Notes under the pieces: model-generated
Databases searched by the model: none
Told to the model about the DNA's origin: nothing
What the model saw: only the letters and a program-made list of their open reading frames with translations
In this document: positions 5,500 to 33,375 of the stretch, piece by piece
Layout: the number at the start of each line of letters is the position of its first letter
How positions within the stretch are numbered: position 1 is the stretch's first letter
Sequence record: PP083182.1
Source of the DNA: Escherichia phage P151
Length of the DNA: 40,500 nucleotides
Strand: one strand, 5' to 3'
Translations under genes and position numbers: made by a program

Positions 5500-5551
5500 G
5501 GTGCCTATATGATACCTACTTTAAGTTCTAACTTTAAGGAGAACATTAACT

Positions 5552-24279: not shown

Positions 24280-26039
24280 TGTCACAATCCCAAGAAGCTA
24301 AGAATGCGTTAATCATTGCGCAACTTAAGGGTGACTTCGTGGCCTTCCTGTTCGTCCTATGGAAGGCTCTTAACTTACCTAAACCAACCAAGTGTCAGAT
24401 TGATATGGCACGTACACTCGCTAACGGAGACCACAAGAAGTTTATCCTTCAGGCGTTCCGTGGTATTGGCAAGTCCTTTATCACCTGTTCGTTCGTTGTG
24501 TGGGTCTTATGGCGTGACCCTCAACTTAAGGTGCTCATCGTGTCTGCCTCTAAGGAACGTGCTGATGCTAACTCCATCTTCATCAAGAACATCATTGACC
24601 TGCTGCCATTCCTCGCTGAGTTAAAACCTCGACCGGGACAGCGTGACTCCGTGATTAGCTTCGACGTTGGATTAGCTAAACCAGACCACTCACCCTCTGT
24701 GAAGTCTGTAGGTATCACTGGTCAGTTGACTGGTAGCCGTGCTGACATCATCATTGCGGATGACGTTGAGGTTCCCGGTAATAGCTCTACGAGTTCTGCC
24801 CGTGAGAAGCTCTGGACGTTGGTAACTGAGTTTGCTGCATTGCTTAAGCCATTGCCCACCTCTCGTGTTATCTACCTTGGCACACCTCAAACCGAGATGA
24901 CGCTCTACAAGGAACTTGAAGATAACAAAGGGTACAGCACTGTAATCTGGCCTGCACAGTATCCACGTAATGACGCTGAGGCTCTCTACTATGGGGACCG
25001 CTTGGCTCCGATGCTTAAGGCTGAATACGATGAGGGCTTCGAGTTACTTCGTGGTCAACCTACTGACCCTATTCGATTCGACATGGATGACCTCCGTGAA
25101 CGTGAACTCGAATATGGCAAAGCTGGCTACACGCTTCAGTTCATGCTTAACCCGAACCTTAGTGATGCCGAGAAGTACCCGCTACGACTCCGTGACGCTA
25201 TCGTGTGCGCTGTGGACCCTGAACGTGCCCCATTGTCTTACCAGTGGTTGCCGAACCGTCAGAACCGCAATGAGGAACTCCCTAACGTTGGTCTGAAGGG
25301 TGATGACATCCATGCGTTCCATACGTGCTCTTCTCGTACCGCTGAGTATCAGTCTAAGATTCTGGTCATTGACCCAAGTGGTCGTGGTAAGGATGAGACC
25401 GGGTACGCAGTCCTCTACTCACTTAACGGTTATATCTACTTGATGGAAGTCGGTGGGTTCCGTGGTGGTTACGAAGATGCTACCCTAGAGAAGCTCGCTA
25501 AGAAGGCCAAGCAGTGGAAGGTACAGACAGTCGTTCACGAGTCCAACTTCGGTGACGGTATGTTCGGTAAGATTTTCTCTCCGATTCTCCTGAAGCACCA
25601 CAAGTGTGCCTTAGAGGAAATCCGTGCTAAAGGCATGAAGGAGATGCGAATCTGCGATACTATCGAGCCGTTGATGGGTGCGCACAAGCTGGTCATTCGT
25701 GATGAGGTTATCCGTGAAGACTATCAGACTGCTCGTGACCTTGATGGGAAACATGATGTTCGCTACAGTGCGTTCTATCAGATGACCCGTATGACCCGTG
25801 AGCGAGGCGCTGTGGCACACGATGACCGACTTGATGCTATCGCATTGGGTATCGAGTTCCTGCGTGAAGGGATGCTTGTGGACAGCCGTGTAGGTGAAGA
25901 AGAGATGACCCTTGAGTTCCTTGAACACCACATGGAGAAACAGACCATTGGTGGTGATGCTATCCATAGCTACGATGTTGGTGGCGTGGACATCTACTAC
26001 GAGGACGATGGAGACTCTAGCTGCTTCATTGAGTGGTAA
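24279..26039 (+). CDS. Terminase large subunit gp19 (586 aa)
   Basis: Same length as T7 gp19; [35 protein letters not shown] (Walker A-like), [30 protein letters not shown] conserved. Confidence 0.97.
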
Positions 26040-26126
26040 TAGATAAGTATGCGGGAAAGGTGCATAAGTACGCATTGAGTACCGCTACGTTACCATTAAG
26101 AAAACATCAATGAAAACAAGAGGTTA

Positions 26127-26149
26127 TTAATACGACTCACTATTGGGAA
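26127..26149 (+). promoter_or_regulatory. Phage RNAP promoter phiOR (TAATACGACTCACTATTGGGAAG)
   Basis: Consensus promoter between genes 19 and 19.5, as T7 phiOR. Confidence 0.85.
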
Positions 26150-26308
26150 GGGCCCCCCTAAGACAACTTAAAGACACTTAAAGACTGCATATGCAAAGTG
26201 CATACTTAGTGACTACTCTTAGAGACCCTTACAGTGAGGGATGATAGTAATAGTAATTACATCCCTAACTATCAGTGTAACCATCAAGTATAACAAGGAG
26301 GACGCTCT

Positions 26309-26464
26309 ATGCGATTACTATCCGTGCTTAAGACACTAGCAACGCATCGAGTGACCTATAAATTTCTCGTTGTACTTGCTGCTTCCATTGGTCTCGCATC
26401 TAGTGCTGAACACATCGGTGAACTGGAGACTCTGCTTTGTTCTCTACTCACTTGTGTTCCTTAG
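26309..26464 (+). CDS. gp19.5-like small membrane protein (51 aa)
   Basis: Hand-translated: MRLLSVLKTLATHRVTYKFLVVLAASIGLASSAEHIGELETLLCSLLTCVP; AAGGAGG RBS; HRVTY-(K/R)-FLVVL resembles T7 gp19.5. Confidence 0.7.
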   Translation: MRLLSVLKTLATHRVTYKFLVVLAASIGLASSAEHIGELETLLCSLLTCVP

Positions 26465-26549
26465 ACTGCTCATTGGCGCTTAGTGCGCGCTCTTAGTGAT
26501 TATGGTCGATATACATCTTCCCTATAATCACTGTAAGAAGTCAACTCTA

Positions 26550-27045
26550 AGAGGTAGCCTTATGTATTCCTTAATGGTCTACAAGGTCTCTTAGGGTCTC
26601 TCACGTAGTCTCACCGCTATGCTCCCTGCGTAGCACCTTATGATAGAGCCTCTGTGGTTAACCTTATGAGATACTTGATGTACCCCTTTAAGAATCCTAC
26701 AGAAAAATCTGAGTGGGTATCTCATAGTTCATACACACCGAGTTCCCCCCTATGGCCTCCTTCAGTTCCACCCAAATAGTGCCACCCCTATGGTAACTTA
26801 TGGCTTACTTAATGTCAATCCTTATGTGAGACATTGAGTTAACTTTGGGATGACCACTAGATATGGTGTGTGGGGGACCTTATGACCACTATATGTAGTC
26901 CTCTCTGTGTCCCTATCTGTAAGTGACCATTGAGTATCACCTTATGTCATCACCTTATGTCATCACCTTGCTAGCCTTATGTTATCACCTTATGACCATT
27001 CCTATCCTTATGTTAACCTTCAGTCAGTGCCTTATGTTTATCAGT
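26550..27045. repeat. Array of about 14 short CCTTATG-type repeats spanning the probable physical genome ends / terminal repeat (collapsed)
   Basis: Motif recurs at irregular spacing; embedded TCTCAC..., CTCTCTGTGTCCCTATCTGT and CCCCTATGG resemble the T7 terminal repeat, where the short repeat is CCTAAAG. Confidence 0.6.
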
Positions 27046-27178
27046 GACCAGTAGGCTTCGTCACAAAGGAGATTCATTATCTTACTCTGTTTATCAGTCT
27101 CTGAGTAATGAGAGAGACACAAGTAATATCGACTGAGTGCCTATAGTGCCTTAAAGATGGCTTAGAGTCAATGGCCTT

Positions 27179-27201
27179 TAATATGACTCACTATTGAGAG
27201 A
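27179..27201 (+). promoter_or_regulatory. Phage RNAP promoter phiOL (TAATATGACTCACTATTGAGAGA)
   Basis: 21/23 consensus match upstream of the host promoters, as T7 phiOL. Confidence 0.75.
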
Positions 27202-27303
27202 GAGAGGGAGAAACACTGCTAATGGTCATTCTCTCTTTATGTCTACTATAAGAGACTATAAGACAACTTAAAGAGAGGCTTTAAGATTCTTTAAGATTAA
27301 GTG

Positions 27304-27333
27304 TTGACATTGATAATGGCTCATGAGACTATA
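27304..27333 (+). promoter_or_regulatory. Host sigma70-type early promoter (A1-like)
   Basis: -35 TTGACA at 27304, 17-bp spacer, -10 region GACTAT/ACTATA; analogous to T7 A1 (TTGACT...GATACT). Confidence 0.6.
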
Positions 27334-27438
27334 TCAACCGTTGAGAGACACAACGCTATCAACTACCAGACAATACCGCGAGTTATCTGGTAAGGCTGAA
27401 GGGTCTCAAGTAGTCATCAACCAGACATATGAAAGTGG

Positions 27439-27467
27439 TTGACTCAACGGTAACAAAGCAGTAAGCT
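27439..27467 (+). promoter_or_regulatory. Host sigma70-type early promoter (A2/A3-like)
   Basis: -35 TTGACT, 17-bp spacer, -10 TAAGCT. Confidence 0.55.
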
Positions 27468-27530
27468 ACACAACGTCAACACAACGACTACCCTCTGAAA
27501 CAACATGAGGTGTCACGGTAAGAAAAGGTG

Positions 27531-27560
27531 TTGACAAGCAGTAAAGATAAGATGTAAACT
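27531..27560 (+). promoter_or_regulatory. Host sigma70-type early promoter (A2/A3-like)
   Basis: -35 TTGACA, 17-18 bp spacer, -10 GTAAAC/TAAACT. Confidence 0.5.
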
Positions 27561-27741
27561 GTACGGCATAACGTTCTTGTGAAGTCCCACACTGAAAGGG
27601 ACTCGGTGCTAACGAAACCTGCACTTAAAGTTCTTTAACAATATGGTCGTGTAATTCCCTTACTGCGAGACAGGTAGTCAAGAACTACGGGGATGACGTG
27701 AACGCACAAGCGTTTAACCAATGATAACGCCGACTGATAGC

Positions 27742-27795
27742 GATTAACTCAAGGGCGCACATTAAGTAACAACGTGTGCTCTTTATGATAATCAC
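27742..27795 (+). promoter_or_regulatory. RNase III-type processing hairpin (R0.3-like)
   Basis: GATTAACTCAAGGGCGCAC...GTGTGCTCTTTATGATAATCAC inverted repeat just upstream of the first early gene. Confidence 0.6.
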
Positions 27796-27821
27796 TAACA
27801 CACACATAATGAGGCACTATC

Positions 27822-28280
27822 ATGATTTACACTAATGAACCTGCAAACGTATTCTATGTACTGGTATCAGCGTTCCGCTCTAACCTCTGCGACGAAGTAA
27901 ATATGAGTCGTCATCGTCACATGGTTAACTCACTGCGTAATGCACCGCTTGAATACGGTAGCGTTGAGTCTACAGACTTGACTGGTTGTTATCGGGAGGC
28001 CATCGCAAGTGCACCGACTGAGGAACTGACCGTTCGTGTACGCTGTGCTAACAGAGCTCAAGCAATAGCGGTTGCACGTCTGGCGTGTAACGAGTTCGAC
28101 CAAGATTGTGTATTGGTCTATAAGTCACAGACGCACACGGCTGGCTTAGTGTACGCTCAAGGCATTACTGGCTATAAAGCTGAACGTCTGCCGGGTAGCT
28201 TCCAAGAAGTGCCTAAAGGCGCACCGCTTCAAGGTTGCTTCACGATTGATGAGTTCGGTCGCCGCTGGCAAGTACAGTAA
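27822..28280 (+). CDS. T3-type gene 0.3 protein: S-adenosylmethionine-degrading enzyme (SAMase/SAM lyase), anti-restriction (152 aa)
   Basis: Same length as T3 SAMase and, from memory, near-identical over MI-x-T-x-EPANVFYVLVSAFRSNLCDEVNMSRHRHMV...KGAPLQGCFTIDEFGRRWQVQ; not checked against a database. Confidence 0.7.
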   Translation: MIYTNEPANVFYVLVSAFRSNLCDEVNMSRHRHMVNSLRNAPLEYGSVESTDLTGCYREAIASAPTEELTVRVRCANRAQAIAVARLACNEFDQDCVLVYKSQTHTAGLVYAQGITGYKAERLPGSFQEVPKGAPLQGCFTIDEFGRRWQVQ

Positions 28281-33315: not shown

Positions 33316-33375
33316 CTACGGGCTTCCTAAACTTTAAGATAACTTTAAGTTCTAACTCTAAGAGGAAACACAATC

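What the first reader, a model, noticed from the sequence alone, without database searches (positions are those of the whole stretch)
26150..27300. Shared AAGACAACTTAAAGA motif downstream of both phiOR and phiOL
The same 15-mer follows the right-end promoter (about 26155..26170, then ACTTAAAGAC again) and the left-end promoter region (about 27256..27270, followed by TTTAAGATTC tandem repeats). A GGGATG-loop-CATCCC hairpin lies at 26236..26265. These may be conserved end-proximal elements involved in replication or packaging.
Basis: seen in the sequence. Interest (0 to 1): 0.25.

Follow-up and report, generated by a model that had tools for sequence, protein, structure and literature searches.

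The report
Conserved repeat box after terminal promoters
A short repeated DNA motif (ACTTAAAGA) sits just downstream of both end-proximal phage-polymerase promoters of this T7-like phage and of most of its relatives, so it is a real conserved control element of the "replication promoter" regions already known from T7, not a chance AT-rich match.

Summary
An exact 16-mer, TAAGACAACTTAAAGA, lies at 26159-26174 (after phiOR) and 27259-27274 (after phiOL). It is two adjacent units of a 10-11-bp repeat, ACT(T/A)(A/T)AAGA(C/G). Tandem arrays of this unit occur only at these two places in the 40.5-kb genome (about 0.005 expected in shuffles). In T7, the strict tandem test finds only phiOL. phiOR has a degenerate three-unit 11-nt array.

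The window is a circularly permuted Berlinvirus (BA14/Kvp1/P483 group). The box is conserved well beyond that genus. All 20 distinct phiOL-to-A1 intervals examined (T7, T3, K11 and Berlin types) carry ACTTAAAG. In 18 of 20 phiOR lineages an AC..AAAG box starts at about +12 of the transcript, against 2 of 28 other promoters.

The GGGATG/CATCCC hairpin is also real. Its position is conserved, with six to seven different, fully complementary stems.

Most likely the box is the conserved downstream part of the phiOL/phiOR "replication promoter" modules known from T7. That function is inferred, not shown. This region is not unusually AT-rich here, so sequence, not composition, is conserved.

It is a new member of a known kind, of modest interest.

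The parts
26127..26150 (+). phiOR, a phage-RNA-polymerase promoter (TTAATACGACTCACTATTGGGAAG); the transcript starts at 26145
   Evidence: It matches the window's 15 promoter-like sites. It is homologous to the annotated phiOR of BA14 and to phi19.2 of Kvp1.
26155..26185 (+). Right-end box array of three phased units: CCCCTAAGAC (degenerate), AACTTAAAGAC and ACTTAAAGAC, starting at +11 of the phiOR transcript
   Evidence: TRF reports period 10 and 2.5 copies. It is one of only two tandem clusters in the genome. The 85-nt module is at least 95% identical in 85 phage records.
26159..26174 (+). Copy 1 of the exact shared 16-mer TAAGACAACTTAAAGA
   Evidence: D9
26190..26204 (+). Mini-hairpin TATGCA-AAG-TGCATA, overlapping the palindrome TGCATATGCA at 26187-26196
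   Evidence: Read from the sequence and paired in the predicted fold. T7 has TGCATA-AAG-TATGCA at the same place, with the arms swapped.
26237..26266 (+). Stem-loop AGGGATG / 16-nt AT-rich loop / CATCCCT, 42 nt upstream of the gene 19.5 start codon
   Evidence: Present in both the MFE and centroid folds. A hairpin sits at the same position with 6-7 different, perfectly complementary stems across lineages.
26309..26464 (+). Gene 19.5 (51 aa), the only gene between phiOR and the terminal repeat
   Evidence: ORF list. BA14 and Kvp1 annotate gp19.5 at the same place.
26720..26914 (+). Terminal repeat (context only; one copy in this permuted assembly), followed by the concatemer-junction signal CTATCTGT at 26913-26920
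   Evidence: Alignment by eye to the annotated 194-bp BA14 repeat and its 'concatemeric junction' feature.
27178..27201 (+). phiOL, a phage-RNA-polymerase promoter (TTAATATGACTCACTATTGAGAGA); the transcript starts at 27196 and is followed by a purine-only GA-rich run at 27196-27215
   Evidence: and 64 (D4, 91% identical to phiOR). BA14 annotates phiOL at the equivalent site.
27245..27275 (+). Left-end box array of three phased units: ACTATAAGAG, ACTATAAGAC and AACTTAAAGAG
   Evidence: TRF reports period 10. It is the second of the only two tandem clusters in the genome. K11 phiOR carries the identical 20-mer ACTATAAGACAACTTAAAGA.
27259..27274 (+). Copy 2 of the exact shared 16-mer TAAGACAACTTAAAGA
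   Evidence: D9
27279..27298 (+). CTTTAAGATT x2. The core is the same as in the box but in the opposite orientation, and it abuts the host promoter -35 hexamer
   Evidence: I2
27304..27309 (+). TTGACA, the -35 hexamer of the first host-RNA-polymerase early promoter (A1 equivalent)
   Evidence: Homologous to the 'host RNAP promoter' annotated at 460-496 in BA14. The simple consensus scan did not call it, because its -10 hexamer is weak.

Best explanation
The shared 16-mer is not a lone motif. It is two neighbouring units of an orientation-specific 10-11-bp repeat, consensus ACT(T/A)(A/T)AAGA(C/G) with core ACTTAAAG. This repeat forms short phased arrays immediately downstream of the two terminal phage-polymerase promoters, phiOR and phiOL.

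These promoter-plus-box modules are the Berlinvirus versions of the T7 'replication promoters'. The most likely mechanism is inferred, not shown. The phage RNA polymerase starts at the promoter, makes a purine-rich first ~12 nt, and then enters the box. There the nascent transcript or the opened DNA is used in cis: to prime or hand over to the phage DNA polymerase (secondary-origin function), and, for phiOR, to send transcription into the concatemer junction for genome maturation.

Shown here: the elements exist, are unique to these two sites, keep a fixed position (about +12) and orientation at phiOR, and persist across genera whose flanking non-coding DNA is no longer alignable.

Inferred: the origin or packaging role, and that the sequence itself, not mere AT-richness, is what is read.
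For: (1) Uniqueness. Tandem units matching ACT[AT]{3,4}AG[AGC] occur only at 26166/26176 and at 27245/27255/27266 in the window. Shuffles give a mean of 0.005 clusters. In T7 the only strict tandem cluster is after phiOL (415/425). phiOR has three units at 11-nt spacing, the middle one degenerate.

(2) Conservation at phiOL. All 20 distinct phiOL-to-A1 intervals contain ACTTAAAG. T7 has GACAACTTAAAGAG directly after phiOL.

(3) Conservation at phiOR. In 18 of 20 lineage representatives the first (A/T)AAG lies at +14 to +17. Among other promoters, 1 of 15 in T7 and 1 of 13 in the window have it within +12 to +20. ACTTAAAG is the most widely shared 8-mer (10 of 20 lineages), and its reverse-complement core occurs in only 3 of 20.

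(4) K11 phiOR carries the same 20-mer as this window's phiOL.

(5) The 85-nt phiOR module is at least 95% identical in 85 records. Over the full 1.5-kb query (which contains this module), 142 of the 186 matching records are only 80-90% identical.

(6) Function of the homologous T7 elements. phiOR works as a T7-RNA-polymerase-dependent, RNase-H-sensitive plasmid origin, and phiOR and phi6.5 are secondary origins (PMC8373140). The polymerase-lysozyme complex pauses at the concatemer junction to start packaging (PMC3276506).

(7) The T7 primary-origin promoter phi1.1B is followed by related units, ACCTTAAGGTTTAACTTTAAGAC.
Against: In this phage the stretch after phiOR and phiOL is not more AT-rich (0.60) than other promoter leaders (0.55-0.72). 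The classic 'promoter plus AT-rich region' description therefore fits T7 phiOL (0.85) better than it fits this phage.

In Berlinvirus the phiOL units sit at +39 to +71, not at +12. Their distance to the A1 -35 hexamer (about 42-52 nt in most phages) is better kept than their distance to phiOL, which points to a link with the host promoter.

T7's own phiOR has only degenerate units (ACGAAAG, ACTATATAGA, ACTTATAGA).

The regular expression used was written after seeing the sites. One search's k-mer count is the unbiased check. Sampled lineages are not phylogenetically independent.
Confidence: 0.45

Rival explanations
1. The left-end array is an upstream activating element (UP-like or intrinsically curved DNA) of the strong host-polymerase early promoter A1. 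Phased A-tracts from about -85 to -40 help E. coli RNA polymerase bind. On this reading the right-end copy is a separate or vestigial relative.
For: The units and the CTTTAAGATT repeats run at 10-11-bp phase right up to the -35 hexamer (27245-27298, TTGACA at 27304). In BA14 four ACTT-starting units at 11/11/10/10-nt spacing abut the annotated host promoter. The distance from the first unit to the -35 hexamer is about 42-52 nt in most phages, although the distance to phiOL varies from +8 to +50. In T7- and T3-type phages the same 9-mer also lies inside the A1 spacer, as TTGACTTAAAG/TTGACTTTAAG.
Against: No sigma-70-like promoter follows the phiOR array. Yet phiOR carries the most strictly positioned and most widely conserved box. 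The orientation bias (CTTAAAG 31 against CTTTAAG 7 in phiOL intervals) is not expected for simple curvature.
Confidence: 0.2
2. The boxes are packaging signals: binding or coupling sites for terminase (gp18/gp19) or for the polymerase-terminase complex. They would be placed in direct orientation on either side of the concatemer junction, like the pacL/pacR boxes of other phages.
For: One array lies 535 bp left of the terminal repeat and the other 331 bp right of it, in the same orientation. Plasmids need a T7 origin plus the concatemer junction to be packaged (Chung and Hinkle 1990, as cited in PMC13236587). Polymerase pausing at the junction recruits gp18/gp19 (PMC3276506).
Against: The arrays that actually flank the terminal repeat have diverged between genera: CCTAAAG in T7 against CCTTATG here. 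The box stayed ACTTAAAG throughout, so the box does not co-vary with the candidate terminase-site arrays (inference). No binding data exist.
Confidence: 0.2
3. The units are primase start sites. ACTTAAAGAC reads GTCTTTAAGT on the other strand, that is, the GTC recognised by the phage primase followed by an AT-rich flank.
For: In this phage the complementary strand has GTGTC + TTTAAGTT after phiOR. Kvp1 and S523 have TGGTC + TTTAAGTT after phiOL. An AT-rich 3' flank improves primase binding (PMC12839067).
Against: The GAC ending is not conserved outside Berlinvirus and K11. T3 has AAAGCT, T7-type phages have AAAGGTT or AAAGAG, and others have AAAGTT. The GGGTC inside the T7 primary-origin AT-rich cluster is reported not to be used for priming (PMC12839067). 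The sites lie on the transcribed strand, which is not the displaced strand in an R-loop (inference).
Confidence: 0.05
4. The units are leader or translation signals, like the T7 'epsilon' enhancer (UUAACUUUA upstream of ribosome-binding sites).
For: ACTTTAAG precedes the ribosome-binding sites of several genes here and in T7.
Against: The OL and OR boxes are in the opposite orientation (CTTAAAG). No Shine-Dalgarno sequence or start codon follows them. Gene 19.5 starts about 125 nt after the right array, and nothing is coded after the left one.
Confidence: 0.03
5. It is a chance match in AT-rich, low-complexity non-coding DNA.
For: The motif is A/T-rich, and similar 7-mers are common in the genome.
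Against: The local AT content is unremarkable.
Confidence: 0.01

Closest known systems
T7 'replication promoters' phiOL and phiOR (secondary origins; a promoter followed by an A+T-rich stretch)
   Same: The genomic positions match: between gene 19 and the right terminal repeat, and between the left terminal repeat and host promoter A1. The promoter type is the same. T7 phiOL is followed by GACAACTTAAAGAG, almost the same string as here. The T7 phiOR region has demonstrated origin activity (PMC8373140).
   Different: Here the stretch is not especially AT-rich. The phiOL units are displaced about 40 nt downstream. T7 phiOR carries only degenerate units. No origin mapping exists for Berlinvirus.
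T7 primary origin (phi1.1A/phi1.1B plus the AT-rich region)
   Same: A phage promoter is followed by related units: T7 has ACCTTAAGGTTTAACTTTAAGAC, and the window's phi1.1 has AACTTTAAGATAACTTTAAGTTCTAACTCTAAG.
   Different: The core is in the opposite or palindromic orientation (CTTTAAG). It also overlaps the translation start region of gene 1.1, so a coding-related explanation cannot be excluded there.
Short repeat arrays flanking the T7 terminal repeat (CCTAAAG family; named SRL/SRR from my own recollection of Dunn and Studier 1983)
   Same: Short A-rich repeats lie near the genome ends. The T7 unit ACCTAAAGAC differs from ACTTAAAGAC at one base.
   Different: In this phage the repeat-flanking arrays are CCTTATG (26558-27036), while the promoter-proximal box stays ACTTAAAG. 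They therefore behave as separate elements.
UP elements or phased A-tract curved DNA upstream of strong sigma-70 promoters
   Same: The left array is phased at 10-11 bp and ends at the -35 hexamer of the A1-type promoter.
   Different: The right array has no host promoter after it. The orientation is also conserved.
Iterons of plasmid and phage origins
   Same: Tandem, helically phased direct repeats lie next to a site of replication initiation.
   Different: There are only 2-3 units of 10-11 bp, and no cognate initiator protein is known in T7-like phages.
Transcript-primed origins using a T7-like polymerase (mitochondrial LSP/CSBII; ColE1-type R-loop origins)
   Same: A promoter is followed by a purine/G-rich initial transcript and then a defined downstream block. 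The phiOR plasmid origin is RNase-H-sensitive (PMC8373140).
   Different: There is no G-quadruplex block. The conserved block here is A/T-rich. The analogy is mechanistic only.

Membership tests
T7-group terminal replication-promoter module (phiOL / phiOR) | A phage-RNA-polymerase promoter lies in the non-coding DNA between gene 19 and the right terminal repeat, and another between the left terminal repeat and the first host promoter | tested here: met
   Promoters at 26127-26150 and 27178-27201. The equivalent sites are annotated phiOR and phiOL in BA14, T7, T3 and K11.
T7-group terminal replication-promoter module (phiOL / phiOR) | The downstream sequence is homologous to that of T7 and T3 | tested here: met
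   T7 phiOL has GACAACTTAAAGAG, T3 phiOL has ATACTTAAAGAGGG, T3 phiOR has GGGGACTTAAAGCT, and K11 phiOR has ACTATAAGACAACTTAAAGA.
T7-group terminal replication-promoter module (phiOL / phiOR) | A markedly A+T-rich segment follows the promoter | tested here: not met
   AT content over +10 to +49 is 0.60 for both promoters, within the 0.55-0.72 range of the other 13 promoters. T7 phiOL is 0.85.
T7-group terminal replication-promoter module (phiOL / phiOR) | It supports initiation of DNA synthesis dependent on the phage RNA polymerase | not testable with these tools
   Known only for T7 phiOR (PMC8373140).
Iteron-type origin repeats | Several tandem direct repeats in helical phase | tested here: inconclusive
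   There are 2.5-3 units of 10-11 bp at each site. That is fewer and shorter than typical iterons.
Iteron-type origin repeats | A cognate sequence-specific initiator protein | not testable with these tools
   To my knowledge none is known in T7-like phages.
Sigma-70 UP element / upstream curved DNA | It lies directly upstream of the -35 hexamer of a host promoter | tested here: inconclusive
   Met for the left array: 27245-27298 precedes TTGACA at 27304, a site homologous to the BA14 host promoter. Not met for the right array, which has no promoter-like site at 26150-26400.
Terminal-repeat-flanking short repeat arrays (T7 CCTAAAG family) | It belongs to the multi-copy array that abuts the terminal repeat | tested here: not met
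   The arrays abutting the repeat here are CCTTATG: 11 of the 15 + strand copies lie at 26558-27036. The box arrays lie 535 and 331 bp away and have a different sequence.
Epsilon-type translational enhancer | UUAACUUUA-like sequence just upstream of a Shine-Dalgarno sequence and start codon | tested here: not met
   The orientation is opposite, and no ribosome-binding site or ORF follows.
Known structured RNA families (for the 26237-26266 hairpin) | A match to a curated covariance model | tested here: not met
   There is no Rfam match at E <= 1 in 25900-27900. The whole leader does not fold better than shuffles, z = -0.71.

The most novel reading that the evidence does not exclude
The ACTTAAAG box is a dedicated, sequence-specific cis signal that marks 'replication promoters' throughout the T7-like phages. 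It is read at a fixed distance (about +12) from the transcription start. It might act, for example, as the place where the phage RNA polymerase releases or hands its short purine-rich transcript to the DNA polymerase/helicase, or where the polymerase becomes competent to recruit terminase. On this reading, origin and packaging functions depend on the box itself and not on general AT-richness.
Probability: 0.3. Interest if true: 0.55.

Novelty: new member of a known kind. Interest (0 to 1): 0.3.

Why it matters
T7 is a textbook system. Even so, what distinguishes its origin-type promoters from ordinary ones is still described only as 'a promoter followed by an AT-rich region'. A discrete, position-fixed box shared by phiOL and phiOR across genera with different promoter specificities would give a concrete, mutable target. 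It could be used to test how transcription is converted into DNA synthesis or into packaging initiation. It could also improve the design of T7-origin plasmids and transducing phagemids. If the box proves dispensable, it remains a useful marker for annotating genome ends in permuted assemblies of T7-like phages.

Tried and rejected
(1) I scanned IMG/VR for the exact 14-mer AGACAACTTAAAGA. It returned mostly unrelated contigs, chance hits in a huge collection, and I did not use it.

(2) I made a MAFFT alignment of the hairpins for formal pair counting. The stems were misaligned because loop lengths differ, so I replaced it with independent hairpin detection per lineage plus shuffles.

(3) A full-text search for the motif string found only unrelated primer sequences. 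Searches for T3 pacB and for T7 origin papers gave background but no description of the box. Saito et al. 1980 is not held.

(4) I tested 'plain AT-rich unwinding region' as the explanation. I rejected it for this phage, because the AT content is ordinary.

(5) I tested the primase-site idea. The GAC ending is lineage-restricted.

(6) There is a long-range 36-nt inverted repeat between the right array and 26561-26596. It is significant here (0 of 300 shuffles) but is not conserved in BA14, Kvp1, T7, T3 or K11, so I do not consider it part of the element.

(7) I looked for a purine-rich initial transcript as a general feature. It holds for most phiOR lineages but not for Berlinvirus phiOR (GGGAAGGGCCCC).

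(8) Four entries in the k-mer counts were corrupted by a file-name collision. One search supersedes them.

Full report
**What the window is**

The 40.5-kb window is a complete, circularly permuted genome of a T7-like phage of the genus Berlinvirus. The closest records are P483, BA14, Kvp1, 285P and FE44.

The region of the finding is the joined genome ends. In order it holds:
- gene 19 (terminase large subunit), ending at 26039;
- the phage-polymerase promoter phiOR at 26127-26150, with the transcript starting at 26145;
- gene 19.5 at 26309-26464;
- an array of CCTTATG repeats;
- one copy of the terminal repeat at 26720-26914, with the junction signal CTATCTGT;
- more CCTTATG repeats;
- phiOL at 27178-27201, with the transcript starting at 27196;
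- the first host-polymerase promoter, with its -35 hexamer TTGACA at 27304.

These assignments rest on the annotated BA14, Kvp1, T7, T3 and K11 records.

**Checking the observation**

- The 15-mer occurs exactly twice, at 26160-26174 and 27260-27274.
- The exact identity is 16 nt, TAAGACAACTTAAAGA (D9).
- ACTTAAAGAC is repeated in tandem at 26166-26185.
- CTTTAAGATT is repeated in tandem at 27279-27298.
- ACTATAAGAG/ACTATAAGAC is repeated at 27245-27264.
- The GGGATG...CATCCC hairpin is at 26238-26265, or a 7-bp stem at 26237-26266.

**What the motif really is**

The 16-mer spans the junction of two units of a 10-11-bp repeat.
- After phiOR the units are CCCCTAAGAC, AACTTAAAGAC and ACTTAAAGAC (26155-26185).
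- After phiOL they are ACTATAAGAG, ACTATAAGAC and AACTTAAAGAG (27245-27275).

With the pattern ACT[AT]{3,4}AG[AGC] and a spacing of 9-14 nt, these are the only two tandem clusters on either strand of the genome. Two hundred dinucleotide-preserving shuffles gave a mean of 0.005 clusters.

That pattern was written after seeing the sites, so I repeated the test on the complete T7 genome. The only strict tandem cluster there is after phiOL (415/425). phiOR has ACTATATAGA, ACTGAATGA and ACTTATAGA at 11-nt spacing.

**Conservation**

Within Berlinvirus, the 85 nt from phiOR through the array and the following mini-hairpin are at least 95% identical in 85 records from eight host genera. Over the full 1.5-kb query, which contains this module, 142 of the 186 matching records are only 80-90% identical.

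This phage's version of the phiOL region is shared by only 8 records. The other Berlinvirus versions still carry two or three ACTTAAAGA units, for example BA14 with ATAACTTAAAGACTACTTAAAGACGAC.

Beyond the genus:
- T7 phiOL is followed by GACAACTTAAAGAGACTTAAAAG.
- T3 phiOL is followed by ATACTTAAAGAGGG.
- T3 phiOR is followed by GGGGACTTAAAGCTACTATATAGG.
- K11 phiOL is followed by ACACTTAAAGT.
- K11 phiOR carries ACTATAAGACAACTTAAAGA, identical over 20 nt to this window's phiOL array.

A scan for relatives of the gene 19 product brought in 66 further T7-like loci.
- All 20 distinct phiOL-to-A1 intervals contain ACTTAAAG.
- Among 20 lineage representatives of phiOR, which include promoters of clearly different specificity, 18 have the first (A/T)AAG at +14 to +17. 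That is a box of the form AC(N)1-2AAAG starting at about +12.
- Only 1 of 15 other T7 promoters and 1 of 13 other window promoters have the first (A/T)AAG within +12 to +20.
- An unbiased k-mer count gives ACTTAAAG as the most widely shared 8-mer (10 of 20 lineages). Its reverse-complement core occurs in 3 of 20 (which corrects).

Orientation is conserved. There are 31 CTTAAAG against 7 CTTTAAG in the phiOL intervals. Genome-wide on the + strand the counts are 11 against 20.

**What it is not**

- It is not explained by base composition. AT content after phiOR and phiOL here is 0.60, which is ordinary for promoter leaders in this genome. T7 phiOL is 0.85.
- It is not a translation signal. The orientation is opposite to the ACTTTAAG that precedes ribosome-binding sites, and no start site follows.
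- It matches no Rfam family, and the leader as a whole does not fold unusually well.
- The primase-site reading (GTC on the complementary strand) fits Berlinvirus and K11 only. The analogous site in the T7 primary origin is reported to be unused (PMC12839067).

**Most likely function**

The box belongs to the promoter modules that in T7 are called replication promoters.
- The T7 phiOR region acts as a plasmid origin that needs T7 RNA polymerase and the absence of RNase H, which indicates R-loop priming.
- phiOR and phi6.5 are secondary origins (PMC8373140).
- Transcription into the concatemer junction, where the polymerase-lysozyme complex pauses, starts packaging (PMC3276506).
- Junction plasmids need a T7 origin to be packaged (Chung and Hinkle 1990, cited in PMC13236587).

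The fixed +12 position and the fixed orientation at phiOR argue for a role coupled to transcription from that promoter. The T7 primary-origin promoter phi1.1B is followed by related units. So are phi1.1 and phi6.5 here, although there the units overlap translation start regions.

I therefore favour a cis role in converting terminal transcription into DNA synthesis and/or junction processing (confidence 0.45). This is inference.

**The main rival for the left copy**

In Berlinvirus the phiOL units are not at +12 but at +39 to +71. What stays roughly constant across phages is their distance to the A1 -35 hexamer, about 42-52 nt. The phased units run up to that hexamer. In T7- and T3-type phages the same 9-mer is also inside the A1 spacer.

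An upstream activating or curved-DNA role for the host promoter is thus credible for the left array. It cannot explain the right array, which has no host promoter after it.

A packaging-site role is also open. However, the arrays that actually abut the terminal repeat changed from CCTAAAG (T7) to CCTTATG (here) while the box did not. This suggests they are separate elements.

**The hairpin**

A stem-loop 20-45 nt upstream of the gene 19.5 start codon is present in nearly all lineages. Each stem is fully complementary but the sequences differ:
- GGGATG/CATCCC (here);
- GGATGG/CCATCC;
- GGTGAT/ATCACC (T7, T3);
- GGTTGT/ACAACC;
- GTGGTG/CACCAC;
- GAGGGT/ACCCTC;
- AGAGGGT/ACCCTCT (K11).

Loops are always AT-rich and 10-19 nt long. 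Each hairpin alone is only marginally better than shuffles, at about the 95th percentile. The repeated compensatory change at one position is good evidence that pairing is selected.

Whether it acts in RNA (the gene 19.5 leader or the phiOR transcript) or in DNA cannot be decided here. The annotated T7 and T3 records mark no feature there.

**Verdict**

It is the Berlinvirus instance of a known kind of element, the T7 phiOL/phiOR modules. The added detail is that the conserved part is a discrete, oriented, position-fixed box rather than AT-rich DNA in general. Interest is modest (0.3).

Noticed in passing
window 26558-27036: CCTTATG repeats are concentrated around and inside the terminal repeat: 11 of the 15 + strand copies lie here, including a 13-nt-period array at 26936-26994. 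They stand where T7 has its CCTAAAG arrays, so the repeat-flanking motif has changed between genera while the promoter-proximal box has not.
   Followed up: partly
window 26190-26204 and 26048-26066: Two small TATGC(A)...(T)GCATA hairpins bracket phiOR. One lies just after the gene 19 stop codon (TATGC-N9-GCATA). The other lies just after the box array (TATGCA-AAG-TGCATA). T7 has TGCATA-AAG-TATGCA at the second position, with the arms swapped.
   Followed up: partly
window 26156-26191 versus 26561-26596: There is a 36-nt imperfect inverted repeat (27 of 36 matches) between the right box array and a stretch about 125 nt before the terminal repeat. It beats all 300 shuffles here. Only a 9-nt core (ACCCTAAGA) is shared in BA14 and Kvp1, and nothing comparable is found in T7, T3 or K11.
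   Followed up: yes
window 27196-27215; L127 (P483) equivalent: The phiOL transcript starts with a purine-only GA-repeat run, GAGAGAGAGAGGGAGAAACA. Its GA-repeat length differs in P483, which suggests slippage-prone DNA.
   Followed up: no
L204 977-1080 (Yersinia phage Berlin 37697-37800): Phage Berlin has an eight-fold tandem expansion of CTTAGTGACTACT immediately after the mini-hairpin. It is annotated only as 'repeat_region'. The window has about 1.6 copies at 26205-26225.
   Followed up: partly
L144, L146, L147, L150, L151, L154, L157, L158, L162, L172, L178, L194; L204 376-834: Many relatives carry an extra ORF inserted between gene 19 and phiOR. In phage Berlin it is annotated as an HNH endonuclease. 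This window has no such insertion. SWJM-03 has a different ORF inserted after the box array.
   Followed up: no
window 26790-26818 (- strand): A leftward sigma-70-like promoter (TTGACA, 17 nt, TACCAT) lies inside the terminal repeat. The A0 leftward promoter of T3 also lies inside its terminal repeat; that of T7 lies just outside it.
   Followed up: no
window 33329-33370 and 5519-5545: Tandem AACTTTAAG units, with the opposite core orientation, follow the phi1.1-type and phi6.5-type promoters. In T7 the corresponding promoters are the primary origin and a secondary origin. Here the units also precede ribosome-binding sites, so their meaning is ambiguous.
   Followed up: partly
L186, L187, L188 (more distant T7-like contigs): In these phages the +12 box itself (CCTAAAGG, TAAGG or TAAAG) pairs with a downstream complementary copy (CCTTTAGG, CCTTA or CTTTA) to form a 5' hairpin of the phiOR transcript. 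Berlinvirus has no such partner.
   Followed up: no
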